This document shows positions 1,860-20,748 of a stretch of DNA of 27,446 nucleotides, piece after piece. The stretch spans positions 1 to 27,446 of the forward strand of contig JASFMS010000001.1 of NCBI GenBank assembly GCA_050117435.1. Direction: 5' to 3'. Origin of the DNA: Ectothiorhodospiraceae bacterium (GTDB lineage Bacteria; Pseudomonadota; Gammaproteobacteria; Nitrococcales; Nitrococcaceae). The notes beneath the pieces were generated by a model. It searched no databases and had not been told where the DNA came from. It saw only the letters and a list, made by a program, of their open reading frames with translations. A program made the translations under genes and the position numbers. The stretch's first letter is position 1; every line of letters starts with the position of its first letter.

Positions 1860-2023
1860 TGGGTCTCTCCGTGATCGTTGCCAACGTTTGCACTTAGCCG
1901 TTCGTACCTTGGCTTACCGTTGCCGCTCGTCCCGTCCGCCCCCCGAGTACCGGCCATCCTTTTCGCCTTCGCAGCATCGCGGTCGGACCATTTCGCAGCG
2001 GCGTTCAACCGGCAATATCCGCG

Positions 2024-2069
2024 AGCTTAGGCCCCGGTCACGGCGAGGGAAATTGGACCTTGGTCCCAT
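2024..2069 (-). promoter_or_regulatory. Palindromic operator site 1 (2052-2069) plus -10-like TAAGCT (2029-2024), upstream of the sulfatase
   Basis: ATTGGAC-CTTG-GTCCCAT. Hexamer lies 22 bp away on the minus strand, the same spacing as at the other sites. Confidence 0.75.
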
Positions 2070-2168
2070 TGTCCGGGTGTGACGAACCGACGGCGGATGA
2101 TGCGGGGCGGGCGAATACGCAACCGGGAAGGACGGGCAGATCATCTGTTTTGCCGCCGGGCGCCGCTC

Positions 2169-2204
2169 AAAAAAAATCGGCCGCAGCAATATCTGCTGCG
2201 GCCG
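2169..2204 (-). terminator. Rho-independent terminator of the 2247-2858 gene
   Basis: Perfect 11-bp stem CGGCCGCAGCA/TGCTGCGGCCG (2178-2204) with a 5-nt loop. The A8 run at 2169-2176 reads as a U8 tail on the minus strand. Confidence 0.9.
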
Positions 2205-2246
2205 TAGCCTGCGCCGGTCAGCCGGCAGTAGATCCGGCATGCCCCA

Positions 2247-2858
2247 TCAGCGCCAGATCTTGTTTTCCCTCTTGGTACGCGTCACGTTCACGGCCAGCGC
2301 CTGCTCGATGGCCGCTACCACCTGGTCGCCTTCCTTGACCTGACCGAGATCCACGTCGGGACCGGCGGCCAGTGTGACGGTCCGGTTCGGCCCCTTGAGC
2401 GTGACCATGCGGGTCTCGGGATCGAGCTTCTCAACCACGGCGACGACGGTCGTGTAACGCGTCATCTTGCCGCCCGCGACCTGATCGCCCTTGCCGGCCT
2501 GCTCCGTGAACTTGGAGAACTCCGCCCGTGACGTACCGGTCCCCTCGCGCACGGGGCTCAGGGCCACGGTGAGGCCAATCGTGTACTCCATGGATACTTC
2601 ATCACCCACCTGGAGCTCGTCGAAGTTCTTGGCCTCTTCCGATACCGCGAGGGTGAAGACGTTCCCACTGCTCTCCTTGATCGCGACCTCCCGGGTACCG
2701 CGATCAATTTCCTGGATTACGCCGGTTATGGTGCTTGTCTGCGTCTTGCTGACGATCGGCTGGTCCTCCGCGGCATTGACCACGGCCGGAATCCAGACCA
2801 CCGCCGCCAACCCGAGCACAAGGGCCGTGTAGACGCGCGCCAACGGATGCCTCTTCAT
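2247..2858 (-). CDS. Secreted/periplasmic protein with two internal OB-fold-like beta repeats, function unknown
   Basis: Signal peptide ending VVNA-A. Two similar units: TGVIQEIDRGTREVAIK...LQVGDEV and VAVVEKLDPETRMVTLK...VKEGDQV. Has an SD, its own promoter and a terminator. Confidence 0.8.
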   Translation of the reverse strand: MKRHPLARVYTALVLGLAAVVWIPAVVNAAEDQPIVSKTQTSTITGVIQEIDRGTREVAIKESSGNVFTLAVSEEAKNFDELQVGDEVSMEYTIGLTVALSPVREGTGTSRAEFSKFTEQAGKGDQVAGGKMTRYTTVVAVVEKLDPETRMVTLKGPNRTVTLAAGPDVDLGQVKEGDQVVAAIEQALAVNVTRTKRENKIWR

Positions 2859-2893
2859 GCCTGCCTACCTCTCTCTGGGGTTCACCAGTGAAA

Positions 2894-2939
2894 AAGGTAT
2901 GCCGCTGGGGCGAGCAGCGAAATTGGACTTTGGTCCCAT
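2894..2939 (-). promoter_or_regulatory. Palindromic operator site 2 (2922-2939) plus -10-like TACCTT (2899-2894)
   Basis: ATTGGAC-TTTG-GTCCCAT with a 22-bp spacer to the hexamer. ATG at 2858. Confidence 0.75.
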
Positions 2940-2979
2940 AGCAGGCCGAAAACGGAGGGCGATCCGGTACCGTTGTCGA

Positions 2980-3363
2980 CTATCTCGCCCCGGTAACCCA
3001 GGCGATTGCGTCGAGCAGGGCCCGGTCGTCCACCGGCTTGCCGAGGAAGAGCGTGGCGCCGACGCGGCGCGCAACCACCCGGCTCTCCTTGTCGTCGCTT
3101 GCGGAAACGGCAATCACCGGCATCCGCACGCCCACATCCTGCATCCGTTTCATGAGCTCGAGGCCATTGACATGGGGCATGGTAATGTCGAGCAGAACGC
3201 ATCCGGGGGCGGACGACAATCGCGCGCACCGCAGAAATGCCTCTGCGCTGGCAAAACCCATGGCTTCGTATCCTGCAGCGCGAAGCAGTCGCGTGAGACT
3301 GCGACGCACCGATTCGTCGTCGTCGACCACGAATACCTGTACAGGGGCATCAACAGGGTTCAT
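2980..3363 (-). CDS. Stand-alone receiver-domain response regulator (FixJ-like receiver)
   Basis: VFVVDDD, CVLLDITMP (phosphoacceptor Asp), VSAS, LGKP; no output domain. Start placed at the ATG at 3363 because the predicted promoter at 3435-3390 lies inside the longer ORF call. Confidence 0.88.
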   Translation of the reverse strand: MNPVDAPVQVFVVDDDESVRRSLTRLLRAAGYEAMGFASAEAFLRCARLSSAPGCVLLDITMPHVNGLELMKRMQDVGVRMPVIAVSASDDKESRVVARRVGATLFLGKPVDDRALLDAIAWVTGAR

Positions 3364-3389
3364 CGGGCTATCCCGGCCGCAATCCATTG

Positions 3390-3435
3390 AGCGTAACCGT
3401 GGCCGGGAGGTAGGGGTATTGGACCTTCGTCCGAT
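3390..3435 (-). promoter_or_regulatory. Palindromic operator site 3 (3418-3435) plus -10-like TACGCT (3395-3390)
   Basis: ATTGGAC-CTTC-GTCCGAT with a 22-bp spacer to the hexamer. Confidence 0.7.
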
Positions 3436-3484
3436 GGGCAGCGGGGATTTCTGTTGCGGATGACCGATGATCCGCCAACAGCGT

Positions 3485-3519
3485 GAGGGAGAAGGCACCA
3501 TGCCGGTCCCTCCTCCCTC
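3485..3519. terminator. Purine/pyrimidine-asymmetric hairpin downstream of the YfaZ-like gene (terminator or REP-like)
   Basis: GAGGGAG-A-AGG pairs with CCT-C-CTCCCTC, plus inner ACC/GGT. No clear U-tract. Confidence 0.5.
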
Positions 3520-3532
3520 CCATGAGCCCTCT

Positions 3533-4099
3533 CTAGAAGAGGAAGCGCGCCCCCACGTAGAGACTCTTCACGATGTCGTCCTCGCCTGCGTTCCGATCGA
3601 TATTGAGGCGGCGGTAGCCCACATACCCGTACATCCGCTCTGTCAGGCCGATCTCACCGCGAACGACATTCACGTCGATGATGCGCTGGCCGGCGCCGGA
3701 GGTGATCACAGCGGGGGCATAGAAGATCCCGGTACCCAGATACAGTGGGATTGCATCCAGCGGCAGGCGGATACGCGCGCCGGCGCCGAACGCCAGTCCC
3801 ACCACGTCATCGTCCGGCTCTGTGAGGCCGGCGAAGTAGATTCGCCCGCCGACATTGAGCTGCACCTCGCGTATCTGATCCAGCACGTCCGTCTGGTACG
3901 TGCCGTGGGCAATAATGTTGTTGCTCTCGTTCACCAGCGCGCCGAATCGCAACTGGTCTCCCGGCTGGCCCACCGCCGCGGCGTCACGGGTGTACATGAT
4001 CTCGCCGTAATCGTTGGCGAACGACGCCTCCAGCTCGTCGGCGGATGCGACTTGGGTGAGGGCGAAAAGAAACGGAATAGCCCAGAGGAATTTCTGCAT
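3533..4099 (-). CDS. YfaZ-family outer-membrane beta-barrel protein
   Basis: Signal peptide (MQKFLWAIPFLFALTQVASA), alternating amphipathic strands, FYAPAVITSG and YVGYRRL segments, C-terminal YVGARFLF ending in Phe (BAM signal). GGGAG SD before the ATG at 4099. Confidence 0.75.
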   Translation of the reverse strand: MQKFLWAIPFLFALTQVASADELEASFANDYGEIMYTRDAAAVGQPGDQLRFGALVNESNNIIAHGTYQTDVLDQIREVQLNVGGRIYFAGLTEPDDDVVGLAFGAGARIRLPLDAIPLYLGTGIFYAPAVITSGAGQRIIDVNVVRGEIGLTERMYGYVGYRRLNIDRNAGEDDIVKSLYVGARFLF

Positions 4100-4362
4100 T
4101 TTGCTGCTCCCTAGCAATTACCGACACGCACGAAGAATGTTCGGATTGTCCGTATGACCACCCGGCCCTGAAGACAGGCTCCGCCAGGTTTCCCACAACC
4201 CGCCGTCACTCGGCCGTCGGCCGGCCCACCCCGGTCGGATGGCGGGAATTATCGACGGCGTTCGGGTTGTGGTACCGACTTCGCACGACTCCAGCAACCA
4301 TTCGCGGCAAGTATAGACAGTGCACGCTAGCTGCACGTCAAACGATGCAAACGTGCTGCCGT

Positions 4363-5016
4363 TCACCGGCGTAGCCGAGGCTCGACACCGGCAAAGGCGC
4401 AATGGTGGATCAGCTCAGCCGCCGAACGCACCGCCATCTTCGTCATGATACGGCCCCGGTGGACTTTCACGGTCTTCTCGGCTATCCCCAGTTCCGCGGC
4501 AATCTGTTTGTTCAGATAACCGCCGATGACGAACTCCATGACTTCCCGTTCCCGCACCGAGAGGCTCTCGATGCGCCGGCGCGTCTCCTTCTCCCGCTGC
4601 TGGCGCCGCGCCCGTTCGGACGACTCGTGCAGCGCGGTTTCCAGAGCGCGCAGCAATACGGCTTCGTCCACCGGCTTCTGCAGGAAATCCGAGGCGCCCG
4701 CTTTCAGGGCCCGGACGCTCTCTGGCACCTCTCCATGTCCGGTGAGAAAGACGGTCGTGAGTTCCGGACACCGTTCGGCCAGTCTTTCCTGCAGCACGAG
4801 TCCGCTACAACCGGGCAACTGGAGATCGATGAGGACACAACCGAAGGCGCCCGAATCAAGGTGCGCCAGGATCTCCTGCGCGCTCGGGTAGCTCGCCACC
4901 TGATAACCGGCGGTGCCGAGAAGGCGGGACAGACCTTTGCGTATGGTCGGATCATCGTCCACCACGAATACTGTAGGTTCGGGCTGAACGTCCGCTTTGT
5001 GAATCGTCGCATTCAT
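4363..5016 (-). CDS. FixJ/NodW-type response regulator (REC + LuxR-type HTH)
   Basis: VFVVDDD, CVLIDLQLPG, FLTGHG, FLQKP; HTH LSVREREV...LNKQIAAELGIAEKTVKVHRGRIMTKM. AGAGG SD before the ATG at 5016. Confidence 0.93.
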   Translation of the reverse strand: MNATIHKADVQPEPTVFVVDDDPTIRKGLSRLLGTAGYQVASYPSAQEILAHLDSGAFGCVLIDLQLPGCSGLVLQERLAERCPELTTVFLTGHGEVPESVRALKAGASDFLQKPVDEAVLLRALETALHESSERARRQQREKETRRRIESLSVREREVMEFVIGGYLNKQIAAELGIAEKTVKVHRGRIMTKMAVRSAAELIHHCAFAGVEPRLRR

Positions 5017-6805
5017 CCTCTGTACTCTCCCTGCTACAGGGCAGTGCAACGAAGAACGTCACCCCGGGTTCAGAGTCGTTGCGTTCGGCCCAGATGCGCC
5101 CGCCATGTTCTTCGACAATTGAGCGGCAAATCGCAAGGCCGATACCCATTCCCTCGGACTTGGTGGTATAGAAAGGCTTGAACAGTGACGCGAGGTCCGA
5201 ATCGCGCACGCCACTGCCGCTGTCGCGCACCGAAATCTGCACGGTTTTCCGATCACGGCAGGCAACGCTTATGCGTATCCGACCGTGCACGTCCATGGCC
5301 TGCTCCATGGCCTCCATCGAATTCACCAGCAGGTTCAGCACCACCTGTTGGATCTGCGCCACGTTCACGACGGCATAACAGCCCGTTTCGATGTCGCGTT
5401 GGCACTCGATTCCCCGGGTGACGAATTCGCTGCGCATCATCTTCAATACATCGGCAACGCATTGCCCGACGTCGGTCCGCTCACGCTCCGATTCCCTGCG
5501 ATGAAGCATTCCCCGCAGTCCGCTGATGACGGCGCCCGCCCGTTTGTCATCACGCGCAATGTCTTCAAGGATTTCGCGGATTTCGCCGAGGTCCGGTGGA
5601 TCCCGGTCGAGCAGTCGAACGCCGGCCTGAGCGTTGCTGAGGATGGCGGCCAGCGGCTGCATCAGTTCGTGGGCAATCGACGTGCTTATGGTATTCGTGC
5701 GGGTCACCCGCTCCGCGTGCCACAACTGCCGGCGCAGGTCCCTGGCCTCACTTTCCGCGGCGAGCCTGGCAGTGATGTCGGTGGTCACCTGACCCAATGC
5801 CCAGATGGTGCCGTCGGTGTCGACGATCGGGAAACGCAGGGAACTCCATACCCTGTCGCCACCGTCGAAGACGTCCTCGGTCTCCACTGCTTCCCCGGTC
5901 TGGACCACGCGCTGATCGCTGCGCTGTATCGTATCGGCTTCTTCCGGAAACAGCTCCCGGTCGGTCTTTCCGAGCACATCGGCGAGGGACATAGAGTAGT
6001 GATTCTCGAACCACCTATTCACGAACAGGTACCGTCCGTGCCGATCCTTCAGTGATACGAGACCCGGGACATTATCCATTACCGCCTTCATCCGTTTGCG
6101 GCTCTCTCGCCGATCCCGTGCCAACGCTCTGCTCATCAGCACTACCAGGGGCAACAGACCCAGTTCGGATGCCGACACCAGATTCACGTCAGCGAACTCG
6201 ACCATTGCCTCCAACGCCACAGCCCCGCCGAATAGTGCCATGGCAACCCCGATCTCGACGGCGTCCCTTTTTGTCCCCCGGCGATACTGGTGGACAACGG
6301 TGTAAGCAGCGTAGACGAAAACAAGAGCGAGGCCCCACCAGGCAAGCGCAAACCAGGGGCTCATCGCCGTGTTTCCGAAGTCGAGAATGCGTTCTCCCCA
6401 GGGAAGCACCCGGTAGCTCACTGCGGGCGGGTGGACGAAGCGGATACCGTAGGGCAGCAGCAGGTCTGCAAGGAGCAGCAGCGCGAACAGCCCACTCAGC
6501 AGCGTGGGGGTAATGCGGGATCGCAAACCCGCATACGCACGCAGGAACCACGGCAGGAGCATGAGCGTGACCATGGCGAACGACAGGTCCAGGCGGTGCA
6601 ACGCCACCAACTCCCCCGGCGTTTCGGCCTGAAACGTGTAGGACTTTGCCACCACATACAGACCGGTCGCCAGGCAAAGAGCCGCGAACAAGGCGAACCG
6701 CCAGTCCGTCGGCCGTTTCAGCGCCAGGACGCCGTGGTGGACGCATGCATACAGGCAGACGCCCGCCATGACCTGAAGACCTGTCAGGAAATACCCGCTT
6801 TCCAA
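4952..6805 (-). CDS. Membrane sensor histidine kinase (multi-TM N-terminus, PAS, HisKA, HATPase; FixL/NodV-like kinase core)
   Basis: About 6-7 hydrophobic helices; PAS VSLKDRHGRYLFVNR; H-box SIAHELMQPL; N-box QQVVLNLLVNSMEAM; G1 VRDSGSG; F FKPFYTTK; G2 GMGIGLAICRSIVEEHGG. TTG start uncertain (alternative ATG at 6769). Confidence 0.92.
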   Translation of the reverse strand: MESGYFLTGLQVMAGVCLYACVHHGVLALKRPTDWRFALFAALCLATGLYVVAKSYTFQAETPGELVALHRLDLSFAMVTLMLLPWFLRAYAGLRSRITPTLLSGLFALLLLADLLLPYGIRFVHPPAVSYRVLPWGERILDFGNTAMSPWFALAWWGLALVFVYAAYTVVHQYRRGTKRDAVEIGVAMALFGGAVALEAMVEFADVNLVSASELGLLPLVVLMSRALARDRRESRKRMKAVMDNVPGLVSLKDRHGRYLFVNRWFENHYSMSLADVLGKTDRELFPEEADTIQRSDQRVVQTGEAVETEDVFDGGDRVWSSLRFPIVDTDGTIWALGQVTTDITARLAAESEARDLRRQLWHAERVTRTNTISTSIAHELMQPLAAILSNAQAGVRLLDRDPPDLGEIREILEDIARDDKRAGAVISGLRGMLHRRESERERTDVGQCVADVLKMMRSEFVTRGIECQRDIETGCYAVVNVAQIQQVVLNLLVNSMEAMEQAMDVHGRIRISVACRDRKTVQISVRDSGSGVRDSDLASLFKPFYTTKSEGMGIGLAICRSIVEEHGGRIWAERNDSEPGVTFFVALPCSRESTEDECDDSQSGRSARTYSIRGGR

Positions 6806-6968
6806 GTGCGCCTGTCCCTATGGCTGCCTTACTCGGAATACAGAAACGAAAAGTCTGACAAATATAGTACAAAACCGAGATTGGCCACGCGGCCTCCCGG
6901 CCGGATACAGGTAACGCACCGCCCGATAGGACTCGCGTAACCGGTTGCCACGCTCCGAAACGATTCCG

Positions 6969-6995
6969 TTGCACCGGCCCCTGTAAGCATATAAT
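6969..6995 (+). promoter_or_regulatory. Possible sigma70 promoter for the MscS gene
   Basis: TTGCAC (6969-6974) and a perfect TATAAT (6990-6995). The spacer is 15 bp, which is short. Confidence 0.35.
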
Positions 6996-7089
6996 CCAAA
7001 CAGGAAGCCGGCGCCGCCGGGAATCATCCCGACACCCGGACTTTTCAAAACAGGGATTGGTATCCGTATCACGCCAGGGAACTAGCGGC

Positions 7090-8748
7090 ATGAACCACAG
7101 CAGGTCAGTCCGGCCCCCGCCATCGCAGTTTGTCGTCTGGGCACTGGCGCTCCTGCTTTCCCTCTGCGCGCCTGGGACGACGGTTGCCGCCGACGACGCG
7201 AAACCCGACGTCGCCCCCGCCAGATCGCCAAGCACAGCGCCCGTGATCATCGACGGTACCACTCTGTTTCGAGTGCGCGGCGTTACCGCGTACCCTGCGG
7301 CCGCGCGCGCCAGGGCCATTGAAGAACGAATCCGCACTGTCGCGGCAGACCCTGACATCGATACCTCGGCGATCAGGGTGACTGAGTCGGCGGAAGGTTT
7401 ACGCGTAGAGGCCGGCAGCCAGGCCCTATTGCTCGTTGTCGACGCCGATGCCGCCCTGGAACAGGTGGACCGAAAGACGCTGGCGGCAGTGTATGCGGGG
7501 CGCATCGGGGCGGCCATTGCCTCCTATCGCCGGGAGCGCACAACCGAGTATCTCCTGAGAGCCGGCTTCTCTGCGGTGGCCGCGACGCTGGCGTTGGCAG
7601 CCTTCCTATGGCTCGGCAGTCGCGGGCTCCGCCGCCTTGACGCCGCGCTCGACACACGCCTGAAAGTGAAGCTGAGGGGCGTCGAGAAACAGGCCTTCCG
7701 CGTTATCACCGCCTCGGATATGTGGAGGGCTCTCCACGGTGCCCGCCGGCTTCTCTGGTCGCTGGTAATTTTCGTCGCGGTGGTCCTCTGCCTGTATTTC
7801 GTGCTGCAGCAGTTCCCCTGGACACGTCTGGTCGCCTACCGCCTTATCGAGCTCCTGTTGAATCCCGTCCATACCATGGGTCGACAACTGTTGGCCGTGG
7901 CGCCGGATCTCGTCTTTCTGGCCCTGATCTTCGTCGTGACCCGCTTTGCCCTGAAAACCATTCGCGTATTCTTCGCGGGAATGGCCCGGGGCGTGATCAC
8001 GCTCGGCTCTTTCGAACAGGAGTGGGCCTGGCCGACCTATCGCCTGCTACGCGTACTCGTGATCATTTTTGCGCTGGTGCTGGCCTACCCGTATATCCCC
8101 GGCTCGCAGACCGAAGCCTTCAAGGGCATTTCCATCCTTTTGGGCATCATCGTCTCTATTGGCTCCACGTCTTTCATCAGCAACGTGATCGCCGGCTACT
8201 CACTGATCTACCGCCGGGCCTTCCGCATCGGTGACCGCGTGCGGATCGAGGGATACGTGGGTGATGTCGTGGAATCACGGCTGCTGGTCACGCATCTGCG
8301 CACCCCCAAGAACGAGGAAGTCGTAATCCCCAACTCACTGATTCTCACCAGCAATGTTGTGAACTACAGCGCCACCGCCCGCGAAGGGCGTCTGATACTG
8401 CATACGACGGTGGGGATCGGTTACGAGACGCCCTGGCGGCAGGTCGAGGCCATGCTCCTGCAGGCCGCCTCGCGCACGAGTGGTGCGGTGACCGAGCCAC
8501 GGCCGTTCGTGCTGCAGCAGAAGCTCGGTGACTTCTGTGTCGTGTACGAACTGAATGTCTGCTGTGACAACGCCCACGCCATGGACCGTCTCTACAACCA
8601 CCTGCACCAGAACATACTGGACGTGTTCAACGAATACGGCGTGCAGATCATGACGCCCGCCTACGAGGCGGACCCCGAGCAACCCAAGATCGTGCCCGGT
8701 GACCAGTGGTATGCGCCGCCGGCAAAACCGTCGACGCCGGCGGAGTGA
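7090..8748 (+). CDS. MscS-family mechanosensitive channel with an N-terminal exported domain
   Basis: Signal-like N-terminus (ending TTVA-A), several TM helices, ISNVIAGYSLIYRRAFRIGDRVRIEGYVGDV, TPKNEEVVIPNS, VGIGYETPWRQVE. Start placed at the ATG at 7090. Confidence 0.9.
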   Translation: MNHSRSVRPPPSQFVVWALALLLSLCAPGTTVAADDAKPDVAPARSPSTAPVIIDGTTLFRVRGVTAYPAAARARAIEERIRTVAADPDIDTSAIRVTESAEGLRVEAGSQALLLVVDADAALEQVDRKTLAAVYAGRIGAAIASYRRERTTEYLLRAGFSAVAATLALAAFLWLGSRGLRRLDAALDTRLKVKLRGVEKQAFRVITASDMWRALHGARRLLWSLVIFVAVVLCLYFVLQQFPWTRLVAYRLIELLLNPVHTMGRQLLAVAPDLVFLALIFVVTRFALKTIRVFFAGMARGVITLGSFEQEWAWPTYRLLRVLVIIFALVLAYPYIPGSQTEAFKGISILLGIIVSIGSTSFISNVIAGYSLIYRRAFRIGDRVRIEGYVGDVVESRLLVTHLRTPKNEEVVIPNSLILTSNVVNYSATAREGRLILHTTVGIGYETPWRQVEAMLLQAASRTSGAVTEPRPFVLQQKLGDFCVVYELNVCCDNAHAMDRLYNHLHQNILDVFNEYGVQIMTPAYEADPEQPKIVPGDQWYAPPAKPSTPAE

Positions 8749-8769
8749 CCCGCTCCCCCACGCCGCCGG

Positions 8770-9747: not shown

Positions 9748-10703
9748 AGCCTGTTGGCTCCCGGGCGCTCACCCAGCTCCGGACCGGCATCCCCGCCGAT
9801 CAGCCAGTTGTTCTGCAGCGTCTCCAGCAGGCGTTCCAGCTCCCTGAGGGTCACCTGCGTCTGGGTCACCAGCTGGGGCAGTTCATCGCCCACGCCGACG
9901 CTCTGCCGGGTCAATTTACGCACATCCGCGGCAGACGACCGCAGGTCCAGCAGTGCGGAATTCACCGATGAAAGCATCGCCGGCAAGCCGTCCCTGTCAT
10001 CCGCGAGTGCGCTGCTGAGACGCTCGATCTCCGCCGACGAGCGGTTCAGGCTCTGCAACAGCTCGGCCGCCTCGGCGGTGCGTCGCCGGGCCTCTTCCGT
10101 GGTTGCCGCCAGTTCCCGATATAATCGATCGTCGGTCATCAGTTGCCCGGCCGTTCCCCTTCCCTGCTGCATGCCGTCCGCGAGCGTGGCGGTCACCGCC
10201 AGGAGCCGGTTGGTCTGATCGATTACGGGGAAGACCCGGGCGCGCAAATCGTCGATGAGTTCGCCGACGTTATCGGTGGTGCCGCGCTCGGAGCGCGCGC
10301 TCAACACAGCGTAGTCCCAATCCAGCGGTGCGCCTTTTCCCTGTGCGATTTCAAGATAGGCGGCTCCGGCGATACCGAACTGGCGCTTGATCAGCGCAAC
10401 GGAGTCCCGGCGCAGGAAATCGGCCATGCCGTCGTCGATGTCCACAACCGCGTGGAAGTGCTGATCGGGACTAACCACTATCTGTCTCACCCGTCCCGCG
10501 GGCGTTCCCAGAATTTCTACTCCGGCGCCCCGTGAGAGCCCGGAAACACCACTTTCCGGGAGCAGCACGTGCAGCTTCTTGGCCGGAAAGACAAGATCCT
10601 GAACCAGGTTGCTCTGAAGCAGCGTGACCACTACCAGCGCCACCGCCACGAGAACCAGAAGACCGGCACGCCGGCTACCGCGGATACCAGGGGACCCATT
10701 CAT
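9738..10703 (-). CDS. MlaD/MCE-domain protein with a long C-terminal coiled coil
   Basis: N-terminal TM anchor; MCE motifs SGLSRGAGVEILGTPAGRV and FGIAGAAYLEIAQG; heptad-rich C-terminal half. Confidence 0.9.
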   Translation of the reverse strand: MNGSPGIRGSRRAGLLVLVAVALVVVTLLQSNLVQDLVFPAKKLHVLLPESGVSGLSRGAGVEILGTPAGRVRQIVVSPDQHFHAVVDIDDGMADFLRRDSVALIKRQFGIAGAAYLEIAQGKGAPLDWDYAVLSARSERGTTDNVGELIDDLRARVFPVIDQTNRLLAVTATLADGMQQGRGTAGQLMTDDRLYRELAATTEEARRRTAEAAELLQSLNRSSAEIERLSSALADDRDGLPAMLSSVNSALLDLRSSAADVRKLTRQSVGVGDELPQLVTQTQVTLRELERLLETLQNNWLIGGDAGPELGERPGANRLWR

Positions 10704-10742
10704 CGCATTCTGCCTCCCACGACCCCGCCGGTCGTACGGGTT

Positions 10743-11384
10743 TTAGGGAAACGCTGGACAGCTCCCGCGTGGATTCAGCACGAGAACCGCGGCGCCGGCG
10801 GCTCTGGCCCGAAACGCCAGATCGAATACTGCCGGGCGGAGACCCGCTGGCAGGCCGCGAAGCAGTACCAGCGCCGGCGCCCCCAGGAAACAGCTCACGA
10901 ATCCGGCACGCCGCAGATCCTCGGCGTCAGTATCCGCGGGCCTCGAGGCGGGAAGCCCGGGCATCCCGAGTGACCGCGCCAGCATCACCGCCTCCCGCCT
11001 GATCGCATCGACGGGCCTGCCCGTGTGGAAGCGTTCGGCCAGGATGACGTTATCCGCGACTGTAATGCCGGGAAGCCACTCTTCGGGTCCGAGTGGGTAC
11101 CCGATTCGGCCGCGCAGCGCGTCGGCGAATTCCCGCTTCAGGGCTTGCCAGTCGTATCCCAGAAAGCGAACTCGTCCGGATTGGGGCGGACGCAGCCCGT
11201 CCAGGGTCTCCACCAACGGCTCCTCCAGGCCAGCACTCGGAACGTCCAGGAACCGCATTTGGCCCGCTGCCAGCTCGATGTCCGCCGACCAGCCCTCGGC
11301 GCAGCGGCCCCCCCATGAGGGCCGCATGGCCTCCAGCCGCAGAACGGGTTCGGCTGTGGGCCGCGGGCGTGCCGGCGCACTCAC
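10743..11384 (-). CDS. Degenerate ABC-ATPase-fold protein (MlaF-like position; Walker A, signature and Walker B absent)
   Basis: ABC scaffold retained: GLRPPQSGRVRFLG, LRGRIGY, LPGITVADNVIL. GTG at 11384 overlaps the mlaE-like TGA (GTGA). Catalytic motifs are replaced (see findings). Confidence 0.8.
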   Translation of the reverse strand: MSAPARPRPTAEPVLRLEAMRPSWGGRCAEGWSADIELAAGQMRFLDVPSAGLEEPLVETLDGLRPPQSGRVRFLGYDWQALKREFADALRGRIGYPLGPEEWLPGITVADNVILAERFHTGRPVDAIRREAVMLARSLGMPGLPASRPADTDAEDLRRAGFVSCFLGAPALVLLRGLPAGLRPAVFDLAFRARAAGAAVLVLNPRGSCPAFP

Positions 11385-12205
11385 AGGGCGATCACCATGC
11401 TTATCAGTCCGTTCACGACGAGCACACCCAGTAGAGTCCGAAAGAATCCCCGCGACAGCACCTCGCCGCGCTCGTGGCCCGCTCCGACCGAGCGCGCAGC
11501 CGTGGTCAACACCACCACGGCGACGACGCCCCCAAGAACCAGGGCCTTCGCCAACGCCCAATGGGGCCCGCTGTCAGCCAGCGTTTTCAGTATGCCGACA
11601 AGGGCGCCGCGGGTTCCGAGCTCGGACAGTCCGAGCAACTCCGCGGCGAGGAACCCCGAGCTGATCGACGCCGCCACGAACACGGCGGTGAGACACGCGC
11701 TCGCCACCGCGAATGCCGCGAACATGGGAACCGCCAAATAGACCAGCGCGTCCACGCCCCTTCGTTCGAGAGCACGCAGCGCCCCGGAAGCCCAGAGTTT
11801 GTGAGCACTGCCCAGCCACGTCAGGCCGGAGCGCCCGATCAGGACGACGGCCACGGCAATGGGCGCGAATTGCTGCAGAACCAGGGCAAGCAGAATCCGG
11901 CGAACGGAATCCGGTTGTCCCAGTTCCTTGAGCCAGAATATGGCCTGGGAGACAAGCACCAGCCCGGTCAGTACCGCGATGATCAGCACGGCGCGGAGGG
12001 CCCCCACACCGTCGCGTTCGAGAGTGTCCAGGAATTGCTCGCGCACCAGGCGGCGCCAGGTGGAGGGACGGATCGCACTCCCGATTATCGTGATGCCCAG
12101 GGCGACGGCATCCACGATCCACAGGCCGCCCCGGTCGCTGCGGCGCATCCCCGGCCCCGCTTGCCGCCGTGAAACCTGCTGCGAAAGCGCTGATGGCGCC
12201 TTCAT
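11381..12205 (-). CDS. MlaE-like ABC permease (divergent)
   Basis: About 5-6 TM helices. QQFAPIAVAVVLIGRSG matches MlaE ELGPxxxxxxxxGRxG; ALERRGVDALVYLAVP matches DALxxMGxDPxxYLVxP. Confidence 0.85.
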   Translation of the reverse strand: MKAPSALSQQVSRRQAGPGMRRSDRGGLWIVDAVALGITIIGSAIRPSTWRRLVREQFLDTLERDGVGALRAVLIIAVLTGLVLVSQAIFWLKELGQPDSVRRILLALVLQQFAPIAVAVVLIGRSGLTWLGSAHKLWASGALRALERRGVDALVYLAVPMFAAFAVASACLTAVFVAASISSGFLAAELLGLSELGTRGALVGILKTLADSGPHWALAKALVLGGVVAVVVLTTAARSVGAGHERGEVLSRGFFRTLLGVLVVNGLISMVIAL

Positions 12206-12208
12206 CGT

Positions 12209-14602
12209 TCAGATCTCGCCCTGCAGTAGGTACGTTTGCACTTCGCCGACGCCCTCCTCGTAATACAGCCCCCTGAACCGAATCGCGAAGTCCTCTCGAA
12301 GCGCATCGCTAGCGGACTCGCCGAGTTGGATGCCGCCGTCGGGGGCGCTGTTCGCCAGCGTCTCCGCCCGATTCAGCGACTCGCCCCAGAGATTGCCGGC
12401 CGGAGCGCCGGTCCCGGACTCGACGCATTGGAGCGGACCAACTGCTATCCCCGCCCGACAGGCCGCACTCAGATCGTGCCGCGCGAACACGGCCTCGCAC
12501 TCGGCGCGTGTGGTCAGTGCAGCGCGCCCGATGGCGCGCACGGCGTCCGCAAGCGGGCGGTCCAGGCCGTCCGCCAGAACGCCGTGCTCCCCGAGCAATC
12601 GGACAAGGGGGATTCCAAGTTCTGAAGCGACGGCTCGCACTCGCTCCGCGAACTCCACCCGCGCGGGCATCCACGCGGCCGCAGCCCCCGAGAGCGCTGG
12701 GCTGCGCACTTCGGAAATCCTGAACCAGAGCACCGCCGCGTTCGGATAAACCGTCGTACCAGAAGCCCCTGTGTCGCCCCAGCGCCGCCGGACTCTTTCC
12801 ACCAGCGGCGGGGCTGGCGCCTCGGTCGCGGACCGCACGCCGCGCCGCCGTTTCGTCGCCGGCGGCGCATTGTTCGCCGCCCCCGCGGCGGTTTCGCCGG
12901 CCTCCATGGCTCCGACATCGCGCCTGTCGCCGCTCAATGCGGGCCGTATAATCCCGGCCGCGTAGCCGGCAACGCCAATCACGTCGCTCTCGCTCAAGGG
13001 TGGCGCGGCGGTCGCGTCCTCCACCCATAACGCGCCCATCAACCGTCGCTTCCGCAGGACGGGCACCGCGGCCAGGGAGCCGGCCCCGACGGCCTGAAGA
13101 TAATTCCGGTACAGCGCCTGCGTGCGGCTGTCGGACTCAGCCTCGGGGACGTAAAGTGGCTCGCCGCTTTCCAGGGCCTCGAACAGATGTGGATATGCGG
13201 ACCGCCCCAATACCGCGGCATCCGTGTGCCCGCCGTGTTCGCGGTCGTAACAGTCCATACACACGAGGGCCTCATCCACGTCCCTGTAGGACCACACTGA
13301 TACGCGCCGGGCCGCGACCGCCTGAGCCACGCTCTCCGTGACCCGGCGCACGGTGCCCCTGCTCAGCTGTGACTCGGTGGAGGCGATGCCGGAGAGCGCC
13401 GACAGTTCCGCACCGAGTCGGTTCATCGCCGCACGCCGATAAAGCAGGTCGCGCTCGCGCCGCTGGACGGATACCCGAAGGGCGACAAGCAAGCCCACGA
13501 GGGGGAGTGACAACAGAACGAGCAGCCCCGAAGCCAGTATCACGTTGCGGCTGTTGCGATCCAGAAAACTCGTGAAGCTCGCCTCCGGCGCAGAAATGAT
13601 CAGCCACAACGGGCGGTTGAGAACCCTCTCCAGGGAAGACGCGGCCACGACGTAACGCTCCGACCCGAGGCCGACGACACGGTGGATATCCCGTTGCACG
13701 CGTACGCGGTCGAATATGCCCCGAAGAACGGGATCCGCCAGGTCCTCGATCCGTGCCGGCCTCAGTCCGTCGCCGTCCCGCACCACCGCATCGGCGGGAT
13801 TCGGCGTCGCGAACACCTGACCGTCGGACTCCATGATTACGGCCTTGCCGTTCCGGCCGATTTCCAGATCGTTAAGGAATCTGCTCAGCTGGGCCAGCTC
13901 GATATCCACACCGACCACATACGCGACTTCTCCGCCCGGAACCCGGACCGCCAGGGCCGCTGTAATCCCCGGCTGCTGACTGGAGAAGAAGACGTAGAGG
14001 TTGCTCCAGAAGACATCCTTCGACTCGACCGCCCCCTGGAACCAGGGGCGCGAAGTGGCCTGAAAGCGGTCGCTCGGATCCGATTCCGTGCCCAGGACGC
14101 CGCCACCCGGGCCCCTGCGAATTACGGTCACCGTCCGCTGCCCACCGTCAACTGCTATGCGTTTGGTATCCAGCCAGCCCTTGTCGTTCCGACGCACCAT
14201 CGTGAAGCGACCGTCCGGATCCGCCACATAGAAGGCAGCCAGGGACGCGTTGCTCCGCATCATGGCGAGTGCGAAACGTTCGAATACGGCGTCCACCTGA
14301 GACCAGTCCAGACGCTGCCGGCCGGCCAGCTCACCCGTAAGGCGAACAGCCTGCTCCGCCGGGCGCATGAAAACCTCGACCTCGCTGCGCACACGTTGAT
14401 CCAGCGAGCGCACCACGTCCTCCGTGAGCCCCAGCACATCCCGGCGGTTGGCGTCACGGTCATAGAATGTGAGCCCGAGGAATCCGCCCAGCACCAGGAA
14501 CAGCACGACAACGGGCGCCGCAACCATCAGGAGATCCCGAACGCGGCCCCTCGAGGCATACCCCGGCTCCGAATCGGGACGGATATCGGGTTTGTCGGTC
14601 AC
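12209..14602 (-). CDS. Membrane sensor: TM-dCache-TM-GAF-class III nucleotidyl cyclase-like domain (probably catalytically inactive)
   Basis: Cache motifs TSRPWFQGAV, WSNLYVFFSSQQPGIT, VVGVDIELAQLSRFL; GAF ARRVSVW...SLAAVPV...GALWVED; cyclase fold CRAGIAVGP, LWGESLN, GGIQLGES, GEVQTYLL. GTG start with GAGG SD. Confidence 0.85.
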   Translation of the reverse strand: MTDKPDIRPDSEPGYASRGRVRDLLMVAAPVVVLFLVLGGFLGLTFYDRDANRRDVLGLTEDVVRSLDQRVRSEVEVFMRPAEQAVRLTGELAGRQRLDWSQVDAVFERFALAMMRSNASLAAFYVADPDGRFTMVRRNDKGWLDTKRIAVDGGQRTVTVIRRGPGGGVLGTESDPSDRFQATSRPWFQGAVESKDVFWSNLYVFFSSQQPGITAALAVRVPGGEVAYVVGVDIELAQLSRFLNDLEIGRNGKAVIMESDGQVFATPNPADAVVRDGDGLRPARIEDLADPVLRGIFDRVRVQRDIHRVVGLGSERYVVAASSLERVLNRPLWLIISAPEASFTSFLDRNSRNVILASGLLVLLSLPLVGLLVALRVSVQRRERDLLYRRAAMNRLGAELSALSGIASTESQLSRGTVRRVTESVAQAVAARRVSVWSYRDVDEALVCMDCYDREHGGHTDAAVLGRSAYPHLFEALESGEPLYVPEAESDSRTQALYRNYLQAVGAGSLAAVPVLRKRRLMGALWVEDATAAPPLSESDVIGVAGYAAGIIRPALSGDRRDVGAMEAGETAAGAANNAPPATKRRRGVRSATEAPAPPLVERVRRRWGDTGASGTTVYPNAAVLWFRISEVRSPALSGAAAAWMPARVEFAERVRAVASELGIPLVRLLGEHGVLADGLDRPLADAVRAIGRAALTTRAECEAVFARHDLSAACRAGIAVGPLQCVESGTGAPAGNLWGESLNRAETLANSAPDGGIQLGESASDALREDFAIRFRGLYYEEGVGEVQTYLLQGEI

Positions 14603-14719
14603 GACGAATCCTCACGTCACGAAGCGCGTCGATCCAACGCCCCGTGACCGCAGCGCTTTTCGACCCCGTTGCGAACCTCCGTCCGAAACGAAGCCATGCC
14701 ACCGGGCGCCGGCCCGCCC

Positions 14720-15310
14720 CTACTCGGCCTCAACCGGGCGCCCAACACGTGCCTGACGGGCGAGATAGACGATGGCCAGTCCCTCACTGACAAGCTGCAC
14801 TCCAAGCAGCAAGCCGAGTAGCCAGATGGCCGACGTGGGCAACAGCGACAGCAGCAGGATCGACAGGGCGACACCAAGGACCCCGCTTGCCAGCAACCAG
14901 TGCCAGTTGGGGAAGGGGCGGATCGTCAGGGCGAACACGACCTTGGACATCCCCTCCACCATGAGGAAGACGATCAGTAGCAATGCCAGCGTGGCGACAC
15001 CCTCTCGCGGGTGGAGAAGAAACAGCCAGCCGATCATTACGGACAGAACCACGGAAATGAGCTGAATCCAGAAATGGGGCACGTTTCGGGCGCCCATCAG
15101 ACTCACGCCCTGGGCCAGACCGCTGATGATCAGCACCCACCCCATGAGGCTGGCCACGGCCAGCGAGGAAATCACCGGATAGATCAGGGCCAGAACACCA
15201 CCGATCACCATCAGCCCACCCTGAATCAGAAACCATACGGAGTGCCGCCTGACGGTGTCCCGCATGGCGTCGCGCATTGCCTCGGCAGCGGCGTCAAGGG
15301 TCATGCTCAT
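14720..15310 (-). CDS. HdeD/DUF308 family membrane protein (paralogue 1)
   Basis: Six hydrophobic helices with WFLIQGGLMVIGG and WHWLLASGVLGV repeats. GAGGAGG SD. Confidence 0.85.
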   Translation of the reverse strand: MSMTLDAAAEAMRDAMRDTVRRHSVWFLIQGGLMVIGGVLALIYPVISSLAVASLMGWVLIISGLAQGVSLMGARNVPHFWIQLISVVLSVMIGWLFLLHPREGVATLALLLIVFLMVEGMSKVVFALTIRPFPNWHWLLASGVLGVALSILLLSLLPTSAIWLLGLLLGVQLVSEGLAIVYLARQARVGRPVEAE

Positions 15311-15345
15311 GGGTCTCCATCCTCCTCGGGTGGCGGCCTGGTGAT

Positions 15346-15375
15346 GCTCGGTAGCCGAGGGCTCGGTAGCCGAGG
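15346..15375. repeat. Exact 2x15-bp tandem repeat; each unit is a mini-hairpin
   Basis: GCTCGGTAGCCGAGG at 15346-15360 and 15361-15375. Each contains CTCGG-TAG-CCGAG. Confidence 0.9.
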
Positions 15376-15382
15376 GCGTTCG

Positions 15383-15928
15383 TCAGGGCGACATCCGAAC
15401 ATCGTCACCAACAACGAGATTCGTGGACCAACCCGCCGAAGCGCCACCCTTTTCCTGAAAGTAAAGCAGGTAGACGTTGGTGTTTGCCGGTCCGCTGAAC
15501 GCGGTGGCACGGCCCGTCTGCATGGTCTTCTCGGCGGCGGTCCAGGCGGGTCCGAGACAGTCGGCGACCACTGGCACGTACTCTTCGTAAAGGCGCCTCG
15601 CCGTGGATTCGTCGGCGTGTTTCCAGGTGCAGACGTAGTTCGTCCTGTCAGCGGCCCACTCCCAGATCAGGCATTCTCCGGAGGCGAACACCGGACGCGC
15701 CTCCCAGAGAGTTGCCATGCGGGTACTGGTCTTGTGTTCCCTGATGTCGCGGAAACCGACCGATTCCTGGTCGATGACCAGACGCAGGTTGTCGCAGGTC
15801 CTGCCGGACCGGGAGTTCGACGACCCGGCCGTATCCGGGCCGTCGGGCATGACCGAGGTGGCGCACCCTGCCAGCATCGCGGCCGCAAGGAGGGATGTGA
15901 CTTGCGCAATCCCCTGCACCGAGCTCAT
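15383..15928 (-). CDS. Hypothetical lipoprotein with four additional Cys residues
   Basis: GGGGAG SD before the ATG at 15928. Lipobox LAG-C22. Mature part has TCDNL, GECLI, YVCTW, ADCLG (possible disulfides). Confidence 0.75.
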   Translation of the reverse strand: MSSVQGIAQVTSLLAAAMLAGCATSVMPDGPDTAGSSNSRSGRTCDNLRLVIDQESVGFRDIREHKTSTRMATLWEARPVFASGECLIWEWAADRTNYVCTWKHADESTARRLYEEYVPVVADCLGPAWTAAEKTMQTGRATAFSGPANTNVYLLYFQEKGGASAGWSTNLVVGDDVRMSP

Positions 15929-15969
15929 GAATCTCCCCGCTCCCTGGAGGCGTGACTCCACATCCTGAC

Positions 15970-16043
15970 GTTATACGCCCGTATCCGGGGGACGTGGATG
16001 GGACCAAAGTCCAATGCCCTCTCCCAACACACCGCGCTAGTCT
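15970..16043. promoter_or_regulatory. Palindromic operator site 4 (15998-16015) with -10-like hexamers on both sides (bidirectional promoter)
   Basis: ATGGGAC-CAAA-GTCCAAT. TAGTCT at 16038-16043 (+) and TATAAC at 15975-15970 (-), each 22 bp from the site. Confidence 0.75.
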
Positions 16044-16117
16044 CGAACTCAGTGATACCGCCGGCCGTCCCGTCGCGCGGCCGGCCATTTCAGCCCCTAA
16101 CTTCAGGAGTAGCGCAT

Positions 16118-16711
16118 ATGACCACGACCGCGGCGCCGGCGGGATTCGAAGACCGCCCCCTGCTGAAAGGCCTGATCAGGAACTGGTGGGCGTTGCTGCT
16201 CCGCGGAATCGCCGCGGTCGTCTTCGGCATTCTCGCCCTGCTATGGCCGGGGCTGACCCTGCTGACCCTGACGTTCCTCTGGGGCGCTTATGTGCTGATC
16301 GATGGTGTCTTCGCGCTCTGGGGGGCCATTGTCGGCAAGGTTGAGGGCGTCGGCGCACGATGGTGGCTTGGGGTCGTGGGAGCGCTCGGCATTCTCGTCG
16401 GCCTCATGGCGCTGGCCGCGCCCGCCTATACCGCAGGCGTGCTGCTTACGGTCATCGCCGCCTGGGCGATTGTCATAGGCGTCCTGCAGATACTCGGGGC
16501 CGTGCGTCTCCGCAAGGAGATCGAGGGTGAGTGGTTCCTGATCGTGAGTGGAATCGTGTCCGTCCTCTTCGGCCTGGCAGTTGTGTTCCAGCCGGTGGCC
16601 GGCGCGCTCGCGGTTGTCTGGATGATCAGCCTTTTCGCGATCCTGTTCGGTGTCGCCCTGATCGCACTGGCACTGAAGCTGCGGAGCGCGGCAACACGTT
16701 TTCTGCGCTGA
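16118..16711 (+). CDS. HdeD/DUF308 family membrane protein (paralogue 2)
   Basis: RNWWALLLRGIAAVVFGILALLWPG and IEGEWFLIVSGIVSVLFG. CAGGAG SD before the ATG at 16118. Confidence 0.9.
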   Translation: MTTTAAPAGFEDRPLLKGLIRNWWALLLRGIAAVVFGILALLWPGLTLLTLTFLWGAYVLIDGVFALWGAIVGKVEGVGARWWLGVVGALGILVGLMALAAPAYTAGVLLTVIAAWAIVIGVLQILGAVRLRKEIEGEWFLIVSGIVSVLFGLAVVFQPVAGALAVVWMISLFAILFGVALIALALKLRSAATRFLR

Positions 16712-16787
16712 ACCGGTTCGCCCACGAATGCGATGGCGGACCGCGTCGCAACGGCATTCTCAACACTGCAGCTCGAAGTGAAATGTC

Positions 16788-20718: not shown

Positions 20719-20748
20719 TACTCTGGTACAAACCAGTGGATAGCGCCC

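What the first reader, a model, noticed from the sequence alone, without database searches (positions are those of the whole stretch)
2024..16043. 18-bp palindrome ATNGGAC-N4-GTCCNAT at four intergenic sites, always exactly 22 bp from a -10-like hexamer: a regulon readable from sequence
Seen, read in the sense of the downstream gene: ATGGGAC-CAAG-GTCCAAT (2069-2052), ATGGGAC-CAAA-GTCCAAT (2939-2922), ATCGGAC-GAAG-GTCCAAT (3435-3418) and ATGGGAC-CAAA-GTCCAAT (15998-16015). The last is identical to site 2, 13 kb away. Exactly 22 bp later come TAAGCT, TACCTT, TACGCT and TAGTCT (all TANNNT), plus TATAAC on the other side of site 4. That geometry centres the site near -43 overlapping the -35 region, as in class II activator-dependent sigma70 promoters. 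Established: a GGGAC-N4-GTCCC core resembles the box bound by mycobacterial DosR/DevR, a NarL/FixJ-family HTH protein. Inference: the local FixJ-type regulator (4363-5016), phosphorylated by the 4952-6805 kinase, activates the sulfatase, secreted OB-fold protein, stand-alone receiver, lipoprotein and HdeD genes.
Basis: partly seen in the sequence, partly recalled or inferred. Interest (0 to 1): 0.8.

Follow-up and report, generated by a model that had tools for sequence, protein, structure and literature searches.

The report
Operator boxes of a FixJ-like regulator
An 18-base palindrome in front of about a dozen envelope and hydrolase genes of an uncultured wetland bacterium is very probably the docking site of the two-component regulator encoded beside it; the switch is an ordinary kind, but this regulator family and its regulon are undescribed.

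Summary
ATNGGAC-N4-GTCCNAT occurs four times in the window (0 expected). The whole 2.4-Mb, 68%-complete MAG has 11 high-scoring sites, all intergenic. Only the 18-mer and a TANNNT hexamer 22-23 bp downstream are conserved. This puts the box centre near -43.5, over a missing -35, which is the geometry of a class II activator.

- The local REC+GerE regulator is StyR/FixJ-like, with recognition helix AEKTVKVHRG. It shares two of DosR's three base-reading residues (the two lysines, KTVK).
- It has nearly the same helix as EL222, whose published consensus RGNCYWWRGNCY fits 8 of the 11 cores exactly.
- In genomes of five phyla, regulators with an E[KRH]T[VI]K helix carry this box just after their stop codon (8 of 11 loci). 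Homologues with other helices do not (0 of 57).
- The gene behind the box is usually a stand-alone receiver, as at site 3 here. Sulfatases recur as targets in three genomes.

The system works like DosR or EL222 at the DNA level but belongs to neither. No binding, transcription start or signal has been measured. Earlier agents of this scan reported the same box and regulator type in several other genomes. Verdict: a real, conventional mechanism and a new member of a known kind.

The parts
2052..2069 (-). Operator site 1, ATGGGACCAAGGTCCAAT in gene sense, upstream of the sulfatase gene
   Evidence: Exact pattern match; PWM 29.6 bits
2024..2029 (-). -10-like hexamer TAAGCT, 22 bp from site 1 (predicted TSS near 2017)
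   Evidence: Sequence; offset table
369..1859 (-). Sulfatase gene (496 aa), target of site 1
   Evidence: Pfam Sulfatase 3e-54. RNA-library contigs cover 231-1886. Sulfatases also follow the box in L048 and L027
2922..2939 (-). Operator site 2, ATGGGACCAAAGTCCAAT
   Evidence: 29.5 bits
2894..2899 (-). -10-like hexamer TACCTT, 22 bp from site 2 (predicted TSS near 2887)
   Evidence: The RNA contig over this gene ends at 2863, inside the predicted transcript
2247..2858 (-). Secreted CusF/OB-like protein (203 aa, signal peptide), target of site 2
   Evidence: Pfam CusF_Ec 5e-6, just under its cut-off; signal peptide seen in the translation; highest RNA-contig depth in the 17 kb laid
2178..2204 (-). 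Intrinsic terminator closing the site-2 transcription unit
   Evidence: 12-pair stem followed by a T run; RNA contigs stop at 2214 and 2246
3418..3435 (-). Operator site 3, ATCGGACGAAGGTCCAAT
   Evidence: 24.7 bits
3390..3395 (-). -10-like hexamer TACGCT, 22 bp from site 3 (predicted TSS near 3383)
2980..3363 (-). Stand-alone receiver (127 aa), target of site 3; candidate feedback element
   Evidence: Pfam Response_reg 6e-25. 50-54% identical to the box-preceded receivers of G015 and L043. The same box-then-receiver order is seen in L043, L044, L046, L050 and L076
4363..5016 (-). FixJ/StyR-like response regulator (REC + GerE HTH, recognition helix AEKTVKVHRG); proposed binder of the boxes
   Evidence: Pfam. 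PDB hits: StyR 3e-52, FixJ 7e-41; for the C-terminal domain alone, EL222 5.5e-12. NCBIfam FixJ scores 191 bits, below its cut-off of 255
4952..6805 (-). Sensor histidine kinase (7TMR-DISM 7TM, PAS, HisKA, HATPase_c); presumed partner of the regulator
   Evidence: Pfam. Its 3' end overlaps the regulator gene
15998..16015 (.). Operator site 4, ATGGGACCAAAGTCCAAT, between divergent genes
   Evidence: 29.5 bits
16038..16043 (+). -10-like hexamer TAGTCT, 22 bp from site 4 (predicted TSS near 16050)
15970..15975 (-). -10-like hexamer TATAAC, 22 bp from the other side of site 4 (weaker: no T at position 6)
16118..16711 (+). DUF308/HdeD-family membrane protein, plus-side target of site 4
   Evidence: Pfam DUF308 1e-28
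15383..15929 (-). Lipoprotein (lipobox LAGC; start most likely the ATG at 15929), minus-side target of site 4; followed by a second DUF308 gene at 14720-15310
   Evidence: Translation; Pfam

Best explanation
The 18-bp inverted repeat (consensus ATKGGAC-YWWR-GTCCAAT) is the operator of a two-component regulon.

Proposed mechanism: the local FixJ/StyR-like response regulator (4363-5016) is phosphorylated by the adjacent 7TM-PAS kinase. It then binds the box as a dimer through its GerE helix-turn-helix. The box ends 22 bp upstream of a TANNNT -10 hexamer, which puts its centre near -43.5, and no -35 hexamer is present. The dimer therefore most likely stands in for the -35 contact and recruits sigma70 RNA polymerase, as a class II activator does (compare DosR at hspX and LuxR at luxI).

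Targets: each box heads its own transcription unit. In the window these are the sulfatase, a secreted CusF-like protein, a stand-alone receiver, and a divergent lipoprotein/DUF308 pair. At least seven more sites lie elsewhere in the genome, mostly before envelope proteins and hydrolases. The regulator-induced stand-alone receiver probably feeds back on the kinase or drains phosphate.

Shown: the motif, its genome-wide restriction to promoter regions, the fixed geometry, the regulator's family and helix, and the cross-phylum linkage of regulator, box and receiver.

Inferred: binding, activation rather than repression, the transcription starts, the feedback role and the signal.
For: Motif and geometry
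- 4 sites in the window against 0 expected.
- 11 intergenic sites at 20 bits or more in the genome, with a clear gap to the next score.
- TANNNT at offset 22-23 in 9 of 22 flanks, against a background rate of 0.002 per position.
- Only the box and the -10 carry information.
- No canonical -35/-10 promoter in 1800-3600.
- The same 21-24 bp geometry is seen at sites in G015, G018, G002 and in loci from other phyla.

Regulator
- It is the only FixJ/StyR-type GerE regulator in the assembled genome. The only other GerE response regulator, on C312, has the NarL-type helix SEGTVKVH.
- Its helix, AEKTVKVHRG, is close to EL222's SEKTVKMHRG. EL222's consensus RGNCYWWRGNCY (PMC10521638) fits 8 of 11 cores exactly and the other 3 with one mismatch.
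- DosR reads GGGACT/TGTCCC with K179, K182 and N183 at a box centred at -43.5 (PMC13486717).
- G015 has the closest orthologue (53% identity, helix AEKTVKVHRR) and also has 6 exact boxes. Most genomes of the order have none, and their best homologues carry S.RTVE.HR helices.
- Among 68 homologous loci with an alignable helix, drawn from the 80 loci kept from GTDB species genomes, 8 of 11 with an E[KRH]T[VI]K helix have a box within 300 bp after the regulator gene. None of the 57 with other helices do (Fisher p = 2e-8; about 0.06 hits expected by chance). The 8 come from Verrucomicrobiota, Planctomycetota, Methylomirabilota, Acidobacteriota and Gammaproteobacteria.
- The gene behind the box is a stand-alone receiver in at least 5 of these loci.

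Expression
- RNA-library contigs within the first 17 kb lie almost only on two predicted targets, and none crosses a box.
Against: - There are no binding or transcription-start data. The RNA evidence is assembled contigs of low depth, and such libraries can carry DNA.
- 32% of the genome is unassembled, so a paralogous regulator with the same helix could be the real or an additional binder.
- G018 has four boxes with the right geometry, but no E-K-T-V-K regulator was found in its 95%-complete assembly. G002 is complete and has one box before a sulfatase, also without such a regulator.
- Three homologues with the helix type (L042 at the threshold used, L047, L062) lack a box nearby.
- There is no box upstream of the kinase-regulator operon itself.
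- The PWM was trained on the sites it then scores.
- Related loci (L046, L066 and L076; L042 and L043) are not independent.
Confidence: 0.78

Rival explanations
1. The boxes are a genuine operator, but another protein binds them. Candidates are a paralogous FixJ-like regulator, a receiver-less LuxR-type HTH protein, or a CRP/FNR-type dimer encoded in the unassembled third of the genome. On this reading the local regulator is near three boxes only by chance or shared ancestry.
For: The genome is 68% complete. G018 and G002 carry boxes with correct geometry but no regulator with the E-K-T-V-K helix. A 5-4-5 palindrome near -42 is also typical of FNR/CRP sites (general knowledge).
Against: The box sits directly behind orthologous regulators in five phyla: 8 of 11 loci against 0 of 57. 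The helix matches EL222, whose measured consensus fits the box. The only other GerE response regulator found has a NarL-type helix.
Confidence: 0.12
2. The local regulator does bind the boxes, but as a repressor that occludes the -35 region of otherwise constitutive promoters.
For: The box covers about -52 to -35, where a bound protein can also block polymerase. EL222 represses when its site lies inside a core promoter (PMC5001607, PMC10521638).
Against: No -35-like hexamer exists at 16-18 bp from the -10 elements, and no canonical promoter is found in 1800-3600. The strict 22-bp phasing and the invariant promoter-proximal half-site are what an activator contacting polymerase needs and a repressor does not. 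DosR and LuxR activate from this same position (PMC13486717, PMC5001607).
Confidence: 0.08
3. The palindrome is a dispersed repeat (REP or MITE remnant, or a recombination site) with no regulatory role.
For: It is a short palindrome repeated in intergenic DNA.
Against: The flanks share no similarity. Conservation is limited to 18 bp plus a -10 hexamer at fixed distance. All sites face gene starts. The same box and geometry recur in unrelated phyla next to one regulator family.
Confidence: 0.01

Closest known systems
EL222 (LOV-HTH protein of Erythrobacter litoralis) and its DNA sites
   Same: The GerE-type HTH has an almost identical recognition helix: SEKTVKMHRG in EL222, AEKTVKVHRG here (E = 5.5e-12 over 67 aa). 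The published 12-bp consensus RGNCYWWRGNCY and the C120 operator (PMC10521638) fit the GGAC-YWWR-GTCC core. EL222 activates sigma70 transcription when its site overlaps the -35 (PMC5001607).
   Different: EL222 is a one-component light sensor with a LOV domain instead of a receiver. Here the input is phosphorylation by a membrane kinase. The natural box here is a longer 18-bp palindrome with conserved AT ends.
DosR/DevR and the Dev box of Mycobacterium tuberculosis
   Same: Both have an inverted GGGAC-N4-GTCCC-type core with an A/T-rich centre. Base contacts come from the K-T-V-K part of the recognition helix. The box is centred at -43.5, overlapping a poor -35, and acts by class II-type activation (PMC13486717, PMC4082495, PMC5999986).
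   Different: Sequence similarity to DosR is weak: 6e-15 against 3e-52 for StyR. Asn183 is Val here. The kinase has HisKA plus PAS rather than the GAF-haem HisKA_3 type (the latter from general knowledge). Boxes are single rather than tandem. The regulon contains no dormancy or USP genes.
StyR/TodT and FixJ response regulators
   Same: These are the closest solved structures and family models (1yio at 3e-52, 5xso at 7e-41; NCBIfam FixJ at 191 bits). They share a REC+GerE architecture and are paired with a PAS-HisKA kinase.
   Different: The score is below the FixJ equivalog cut-off of 255 bits. StyR has Val (AEVTVKVH) and FixJ has Arg/Glu (SPRTVEVH) at the specificity positions. FixJ-like homologues in relatives with R-T-V-E helices have no such box.
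FixLJ-FixT feedback in Caulobacter (single-domain receiver inhibiting the kinase)
   Same: A stand-alone receiver is induced by the pathway it belongs to, which suggests negative feedback (general knowledge; not checked in a paper here).
   Different: Here the receiver gene is preceded directly by the regulator's own box, not reached through a FixK intermediate. Its function is untested.

Membership tests
Operator of a NarL/FixJ-family (GerE HTH) response regulator acting from the class II position | Two-fold symmetric site of about 16-20 bp repeated in promoter regions | tested here: met
   18-bp inverted repeat; 11 intergenic sites; enrichment over shuffles
Operator of a NarL/FixJ-family (GerE HTH) response regulator acting from the class II position | Site centred about -41.5 to -43.5, overlapping a weak or absent -35 | tested here: inconclusive
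   The fixed 22-23 bp distance to TANNNT and the absence of a -35 hexamer imply a centre near -43.5. No transcription start was mapped, and the RNA contigs lack the resolution
Operator of a NarL/FixJ-family (GerE HTH) response regulator acting from the class II position | A cognate REC+GerE regulator whose specificity residues and genomic linkage match the site | tested here: met
   Helix AEKTVKVHRG as in EL222. Box adjacent to orthologues in five phyla, 8 of 11 against 0 of 57
Operator of a NarL/FixJ-family (GerE HTH) response regulator acting from the class II position | Physical, phosphorylation-dependent binding and activation | not testable with these tools
   The complex-prediction job with DNA was not folded. 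EMSA, DAP-seq or reporters are needed
DosR/DevR regulon | Regulator orthologous to DosR (KTVKNY helix, DosS/DosT-type kinase) | tested here: not met
   DosR scores E = 6e-15 against 3e-52 for StyR. The helix is KTVKVH. The kinase has HisKA and PAS, with no GAF domain
DosR/DevR regulon | GGGAC-N4-GTCCC-type box at -43.5 | tested here: met
   Core GGAC-YWWR-GTCC with the inferred centre near -43.5, compared with PMC13486717
EL222-type HTH specificity class | Site fits RGNCYWWRGNCY | tested here: met
   8 of 11 cores fit exactly and 3 have one mismatch (sites; consensus from PMC10521638)
EL222-type HTH specificity class | LOV sensor domain fused to the HTH | tested here: not met
   The N-terminal domain is a phospho-receiver
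FixJ (NCBIfam NF006900 equivalog) | Score above the curated cut-off | tested here: not met
   191.3 bits against a cut-off of 255
Dispersed repeat (REP/MITE) | Similarity extending beyond the palindrome; no fixed relation to promoters | tested here: not met
   Flanks are unconserved; the -10 is at a fixed offset

The most novel reading that the evidence does not exclude
The window shows one instance of a portable output module found in many phyla. The module is a FixJ-like regulator subfamily (helix E-K-T-[VI]-K) with a fixed DNA code (GGAC-YWWR-GTCC at -43.5), always wired to induce its own stand-alone receiver as built-in feedback, and plugged onto unrelated sensor kinases (7TM, MASE1, GAF/PAS, beta-propeller). 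If so, the regulons of thousands of uncultured bacteria could be read from sequence with one matrix, and sulfatases or envelope proteins would be a recurrent output.
Probability: 0.5. Interest if true: 0.6.

Novelty: new member of a known kind. Interest (0 to 1): 0.45.

Why it matters
- It gives a concrete regulon to test for an uncharacterised response-regulator subfamily present in at least five phyla of mostly uncultured bacteria. The prediction covers the operator matrix, the promoter geometry, about a dozen targets and a candidate feedback receiver.
- It links a specificity helix shared with EL222, and partly with DosR, to a DNA code. This helps transfer binding-site predictions within the very large LuxR/FixJ family.
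- It suggests natural promoters for the optogenetic EL222 class.
- The mechanism itself is conventional, so the value lies in annotation and in a possible general rule, not in a new principle.

Tried and rejected
- Complex prediction with two copies of the regulator's DNA-binding domain plus site-2 DNA: not folded and no verdict. It is not evidence either way.
- Transcription-start mapping from public metatranscriptomes: only short assembled contigs of low depth were available. They lie on the sulfatase and CusF-like genes and stop short of the boxes, which is compatible with the predicted starts but does not resolve them.
- Rfam scan of the window: no matches.
- Canonical sigma70 promoter scan of 1800-3600: none found.
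- Literature searches for the core sequences and consensus strings: only DosR and EL222 papers came up, with no description of this regulon.
- Search for a regulator inside the G018 island that carries three boxes: none found.
- The 16-mer pattern with one mismatch was too loose, because the reversed-pattern control gave 7-8 hits per genome. Only the exact 18-mer counts, whose control gave 0-1, were used.
- Rejected readings: membership of the DosR family, a FixJ equivalog, a mobile repeat, and an alternative-sigma -35 element. The last fails because a 22-bp spacer is too long and the site is a palindrome.
Full report
**1. The observation**

The pattern ATNGGACNNNNGTCCNAT matches at 2052, 2922, 3418 and 15998, and none of 100 dinucleotide-preserving shuffles gave a match. 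The -10-like hexamers TAAGCT, TACCTT, TACGCT and TAGTCT each start exactly 22 bp after the box. TATAAC lies 22 bp from the other side of site 4.

The window is the whole contig C1 of a 2.43-Mb metagenome-assembled genome. It has 449 contigs, 65.7% G+C and 68% completeness. Public runs place it in wetland and mangrove sediment samples.

**2. Genome-wide picture**

In the whole assembly the strict pattern occurs six times. Allowing up to 4 mismatches to ATGGGACCAAAGTCCAAT, or using a symmetrised PWM, gives 11 sites at 20 bits or more, and the next best site scores 16.6. All 11 are intergenic and face gene starts.

The 4-bp spacer is not free. It reads Y-W-W-R, mostly CAAA or CAAG.

When the sites are aligned towards their -10, information is confined to the 18-mer and to the T, A and T of a hexamer 22-23 bp downstream. 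The flanks are unrelated, so this is not a mobile repeat. The promoter-proximal half, GTCCAAT, is almost invariant, while the distal half tolerates changes.

TANNNT occurs at offset 22 in 6 of the 22 flanks and at offset 22-23 in 9 of 22. The genome rate is 0.0021 per position, so p is about 6e-12 and 2e-16. With a fivefold higher background the values are still 9e-8 and 3e-10.

No canonical -35/-10 promoter is found in 1800-3600. A strong terminator at 2204-2178 on the minus strand separates the site-2 unit from the site-1 unit.

With the hexamer at -12 to -7, the box covers about -52 to -35 and is centred near -43.5.

**3. Targets**

In the window:
- a sulfatase (369-1859);
- a secreted CusF/OB-like protein (2247-2858);
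- a stand-alone receiver (2980-3363);
- a lipoprotein with lipobox LAGC (15383-15929), followed by a DUF308 gene;
- a DUF308/HdeD gene (16118-16711).

Elsewhere in the genome:
- Amidohydro_3 (C121);
- DUF3604 (C17);
- an HAD/LNS2-type phosphatase, with a divergent NADP oxidoreductase (C32);
- OmpA-like barrels (C435, C144);
- DUF4397 (C135);
- a PLD-like gene beside the C144 site;
- an unknown 268-aa protein (C144).

The theme is envelope and secreted proteins plus hydrolases. It does not resemble the DosR dormancy regulon.

**4. The regulator**

The gene at 4363-5016(-) encodes a REC+GerE protein. The gene at 4952-6805(-) encodes a 7TMR-DISM-7TM, PAS, HisKA and HATPase kinase.

The regulator's nearest solved relatives are StyR (3e-52) and FixJ (7e-41). 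DosR is far weaker at 6e-15. It scores 191 bits on NCBIfam's FixJ model, below the cut-off of 255.

Its recognition helix is AEKTVKVHRG. Two published systems bear on what this helix reads:
- DosR reads GGGACT/TGTCCC with K179, K182 and N183 of its helix, with T180 and Y184 on the backbone. It does so from a box centred at -43.5 at hspX (PMC13486717, PMC4082495). The local helix keeps both lysines and has Val for Asn183.
- EL222 has the helix SEKTVKMHRG (aligned). It binds the consensus RGNCYWWRGNCY, for example the C120 operator (PMC10521638). It activates a sigma70 promoter when its site overlaps the -35 (PMC5001607). Eight of the 11 cores here fit that consensus exactly, and three miss by one base.

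StyR (AEVTVKVH), FixJ (SPRTVEVH) and the genome's only other GerE response regulator (C312, SEGTVKVH) differ at these positions.

**5. Comparative evidence**

Within the order, most of 75 genomes have no exact box, and the reversed-pattern control gave 0-1. G015 is the exception with six boxes. It also holds the closest orthologue (53% identity), with helix AEKTVKVHRR. The best homologues in box-less relatives carry S.RTVE.HR helices.

In G015 a box with the same geometry precedes a stand-alone receiver that is 50% identical to the one at 2980-3363.

A scan of GTDB species genomes kept the 80 best homologous loci, and 68 of these had an alignable helix.
- Eleven carry an E[KRH]T[VI]K helix. 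Eight of them have a PWM hit within 300 bp after the regulator's stop codon.
- None of the 57 loci with other helices do (Fisher p = 2e-8; about 0.06 hits expected by chance).
- The eight come from Verrucomicrobiota, Pirellulaceae, Methylomirabilota/Rokubacteria, Thermoanaerobaculia and Arenicellales. Some are kin of one another, so the p-value overstates the case.

In five of these loci, plus one partial case, the gene behind the box is a stand-alone receiver. In the Arenicellales locus it is a sulfatase. A box with 22-bp TAAGCT geometry also precedes a sulfatase in G002.

The upstream kinases share only the PAS-HisKA-HATPase core. Their sensor parts differ: MASE1, GAF, beta-propeller, a periplasmic binding domain, and 7TM here.

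The conserved unit is therefore regulator, box and receiver.

**6. Expression data**

Four wetland metatranscriptome runs, available only as assembled contigs, were laid on 1-17000.
- Contigs lie on the sulfatase gene (231-1886) and on the CusF-like gene (2214-2863, with the highest depth).
- One further contig lies at 5006-5251.
- None crosses box 1 or box 2, and none extends upstream of the predicted starts.

This is compatible with the model but weak: depth is low, 5' ends are not resolved, and DNA carry-over is possible.

**7. Open points**

- G018 has four boxes with correct geometry, one of them near a CusF-like gene. No E-K-T-V-K regulator was found in its 95%-complete assembly.
- G002 is complete and has one box but no such regulator.
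- Three homologues with the helix type (L042, L047, L062) lack a box at the threshold used. L042 has a 13.5-bit variant resembling that of its relative L043.
- A third of this genome is missing, so a paralogue cannot be excluded.
- The signal sensed is unknown.

**8. Comparison and verdict**

At the DNA and promoter level the system works like DosR and EL222, and the protein is FixJ/StyR-like. It fails the membership tests for the DosR family, for the FixJ equivalog and for LOV-HTH proteins.

Text searches found no description of this box or regulon.

Earlier agents of this scan reported the same box and regulator type in other genomes, including its recurrence across phyla. I reached the same reading from my own searches before seeing those notes.

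This is a real, well-defined regulon operator with a conventional mechanism: a new member of a known kind.

Noticed in passing
window 369-1859; L048:6412-8058; L027:4764-7121: A sulfatase gene directly follows the box in three genomes: this MAG, an Arenicellales MAG, and G002 of a sister genus. This hints at a conserved output of the regulon. The window's sulfatase shows no obvious signal peptide, since its Pfam match starts at residue 6.
   Followed up: partly
L026 (G018:C85) 2381 and 3586; L122:1118; L123:3886; L027:4679 (G002): Boxes with correct 22-bp TANNNT geometry occur in two relatives where no regulator with the E-K-T-V-K helix was found. Either the gene is unassembled (G018) or another protein reads the box (G002 is complete).
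   Followed up: partly
L042:10753 and L043:10750: Two Verrucomicrobiota-type homologues with the variant helix AERTVK[VI]FRG carry a variant box, CTAGCAC-N4-GGTCCGAT, at the same place behind the gene. This may be co-variation of helix and half-site.
   Followed up: no
window 2052-2069, 2922-2939, 3418-3435, 15998-16015 and the seven other sites: The box is functionally asymmetric. The promoter-proximal half, GTCCAAT, is nearly invariant, while the distal half varies (ATG/ATC/ATA/GTC-GGAC). All single-promoter sites share this orientation.
   Followed up: partly
window 4952-5016: The 3' end of the kinase ORF and the regulator's ATG at 5016 overlap by about 65 nt. This is unusually long for coupled genes, so either start or stop assignment may need revision.
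   Followed up: no
window 1-17000: In four wetland RNA libraries, assembled contigs within these 17 kb fall almost only on the sulfatase and CusF-like genes, both predicted regulon targets. The MCE/Cache operon and the HdeD genes show none.
   Followed up: partly
window 3533-4117: A YfaZ-like outer-membrane protein gene sits between the regulator and site 3. In other phyla the box and receiver follow the regulator directly, so this gene looks like a lineage-specific insertion into the module.
   Followed up: no
window 20437-21462: A second response regulator, of the OmpR type (REC + Trans_reg_C) with a roughly 110-aa N-terminal extension, lies in the window. It is unrelated to the boxes.
   Followed up: no
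L026:2818-3129 (G018): A bacterial RRM_1 RNA-binding protein gene lies between two boxes in the G018 island.
   Followed up: no
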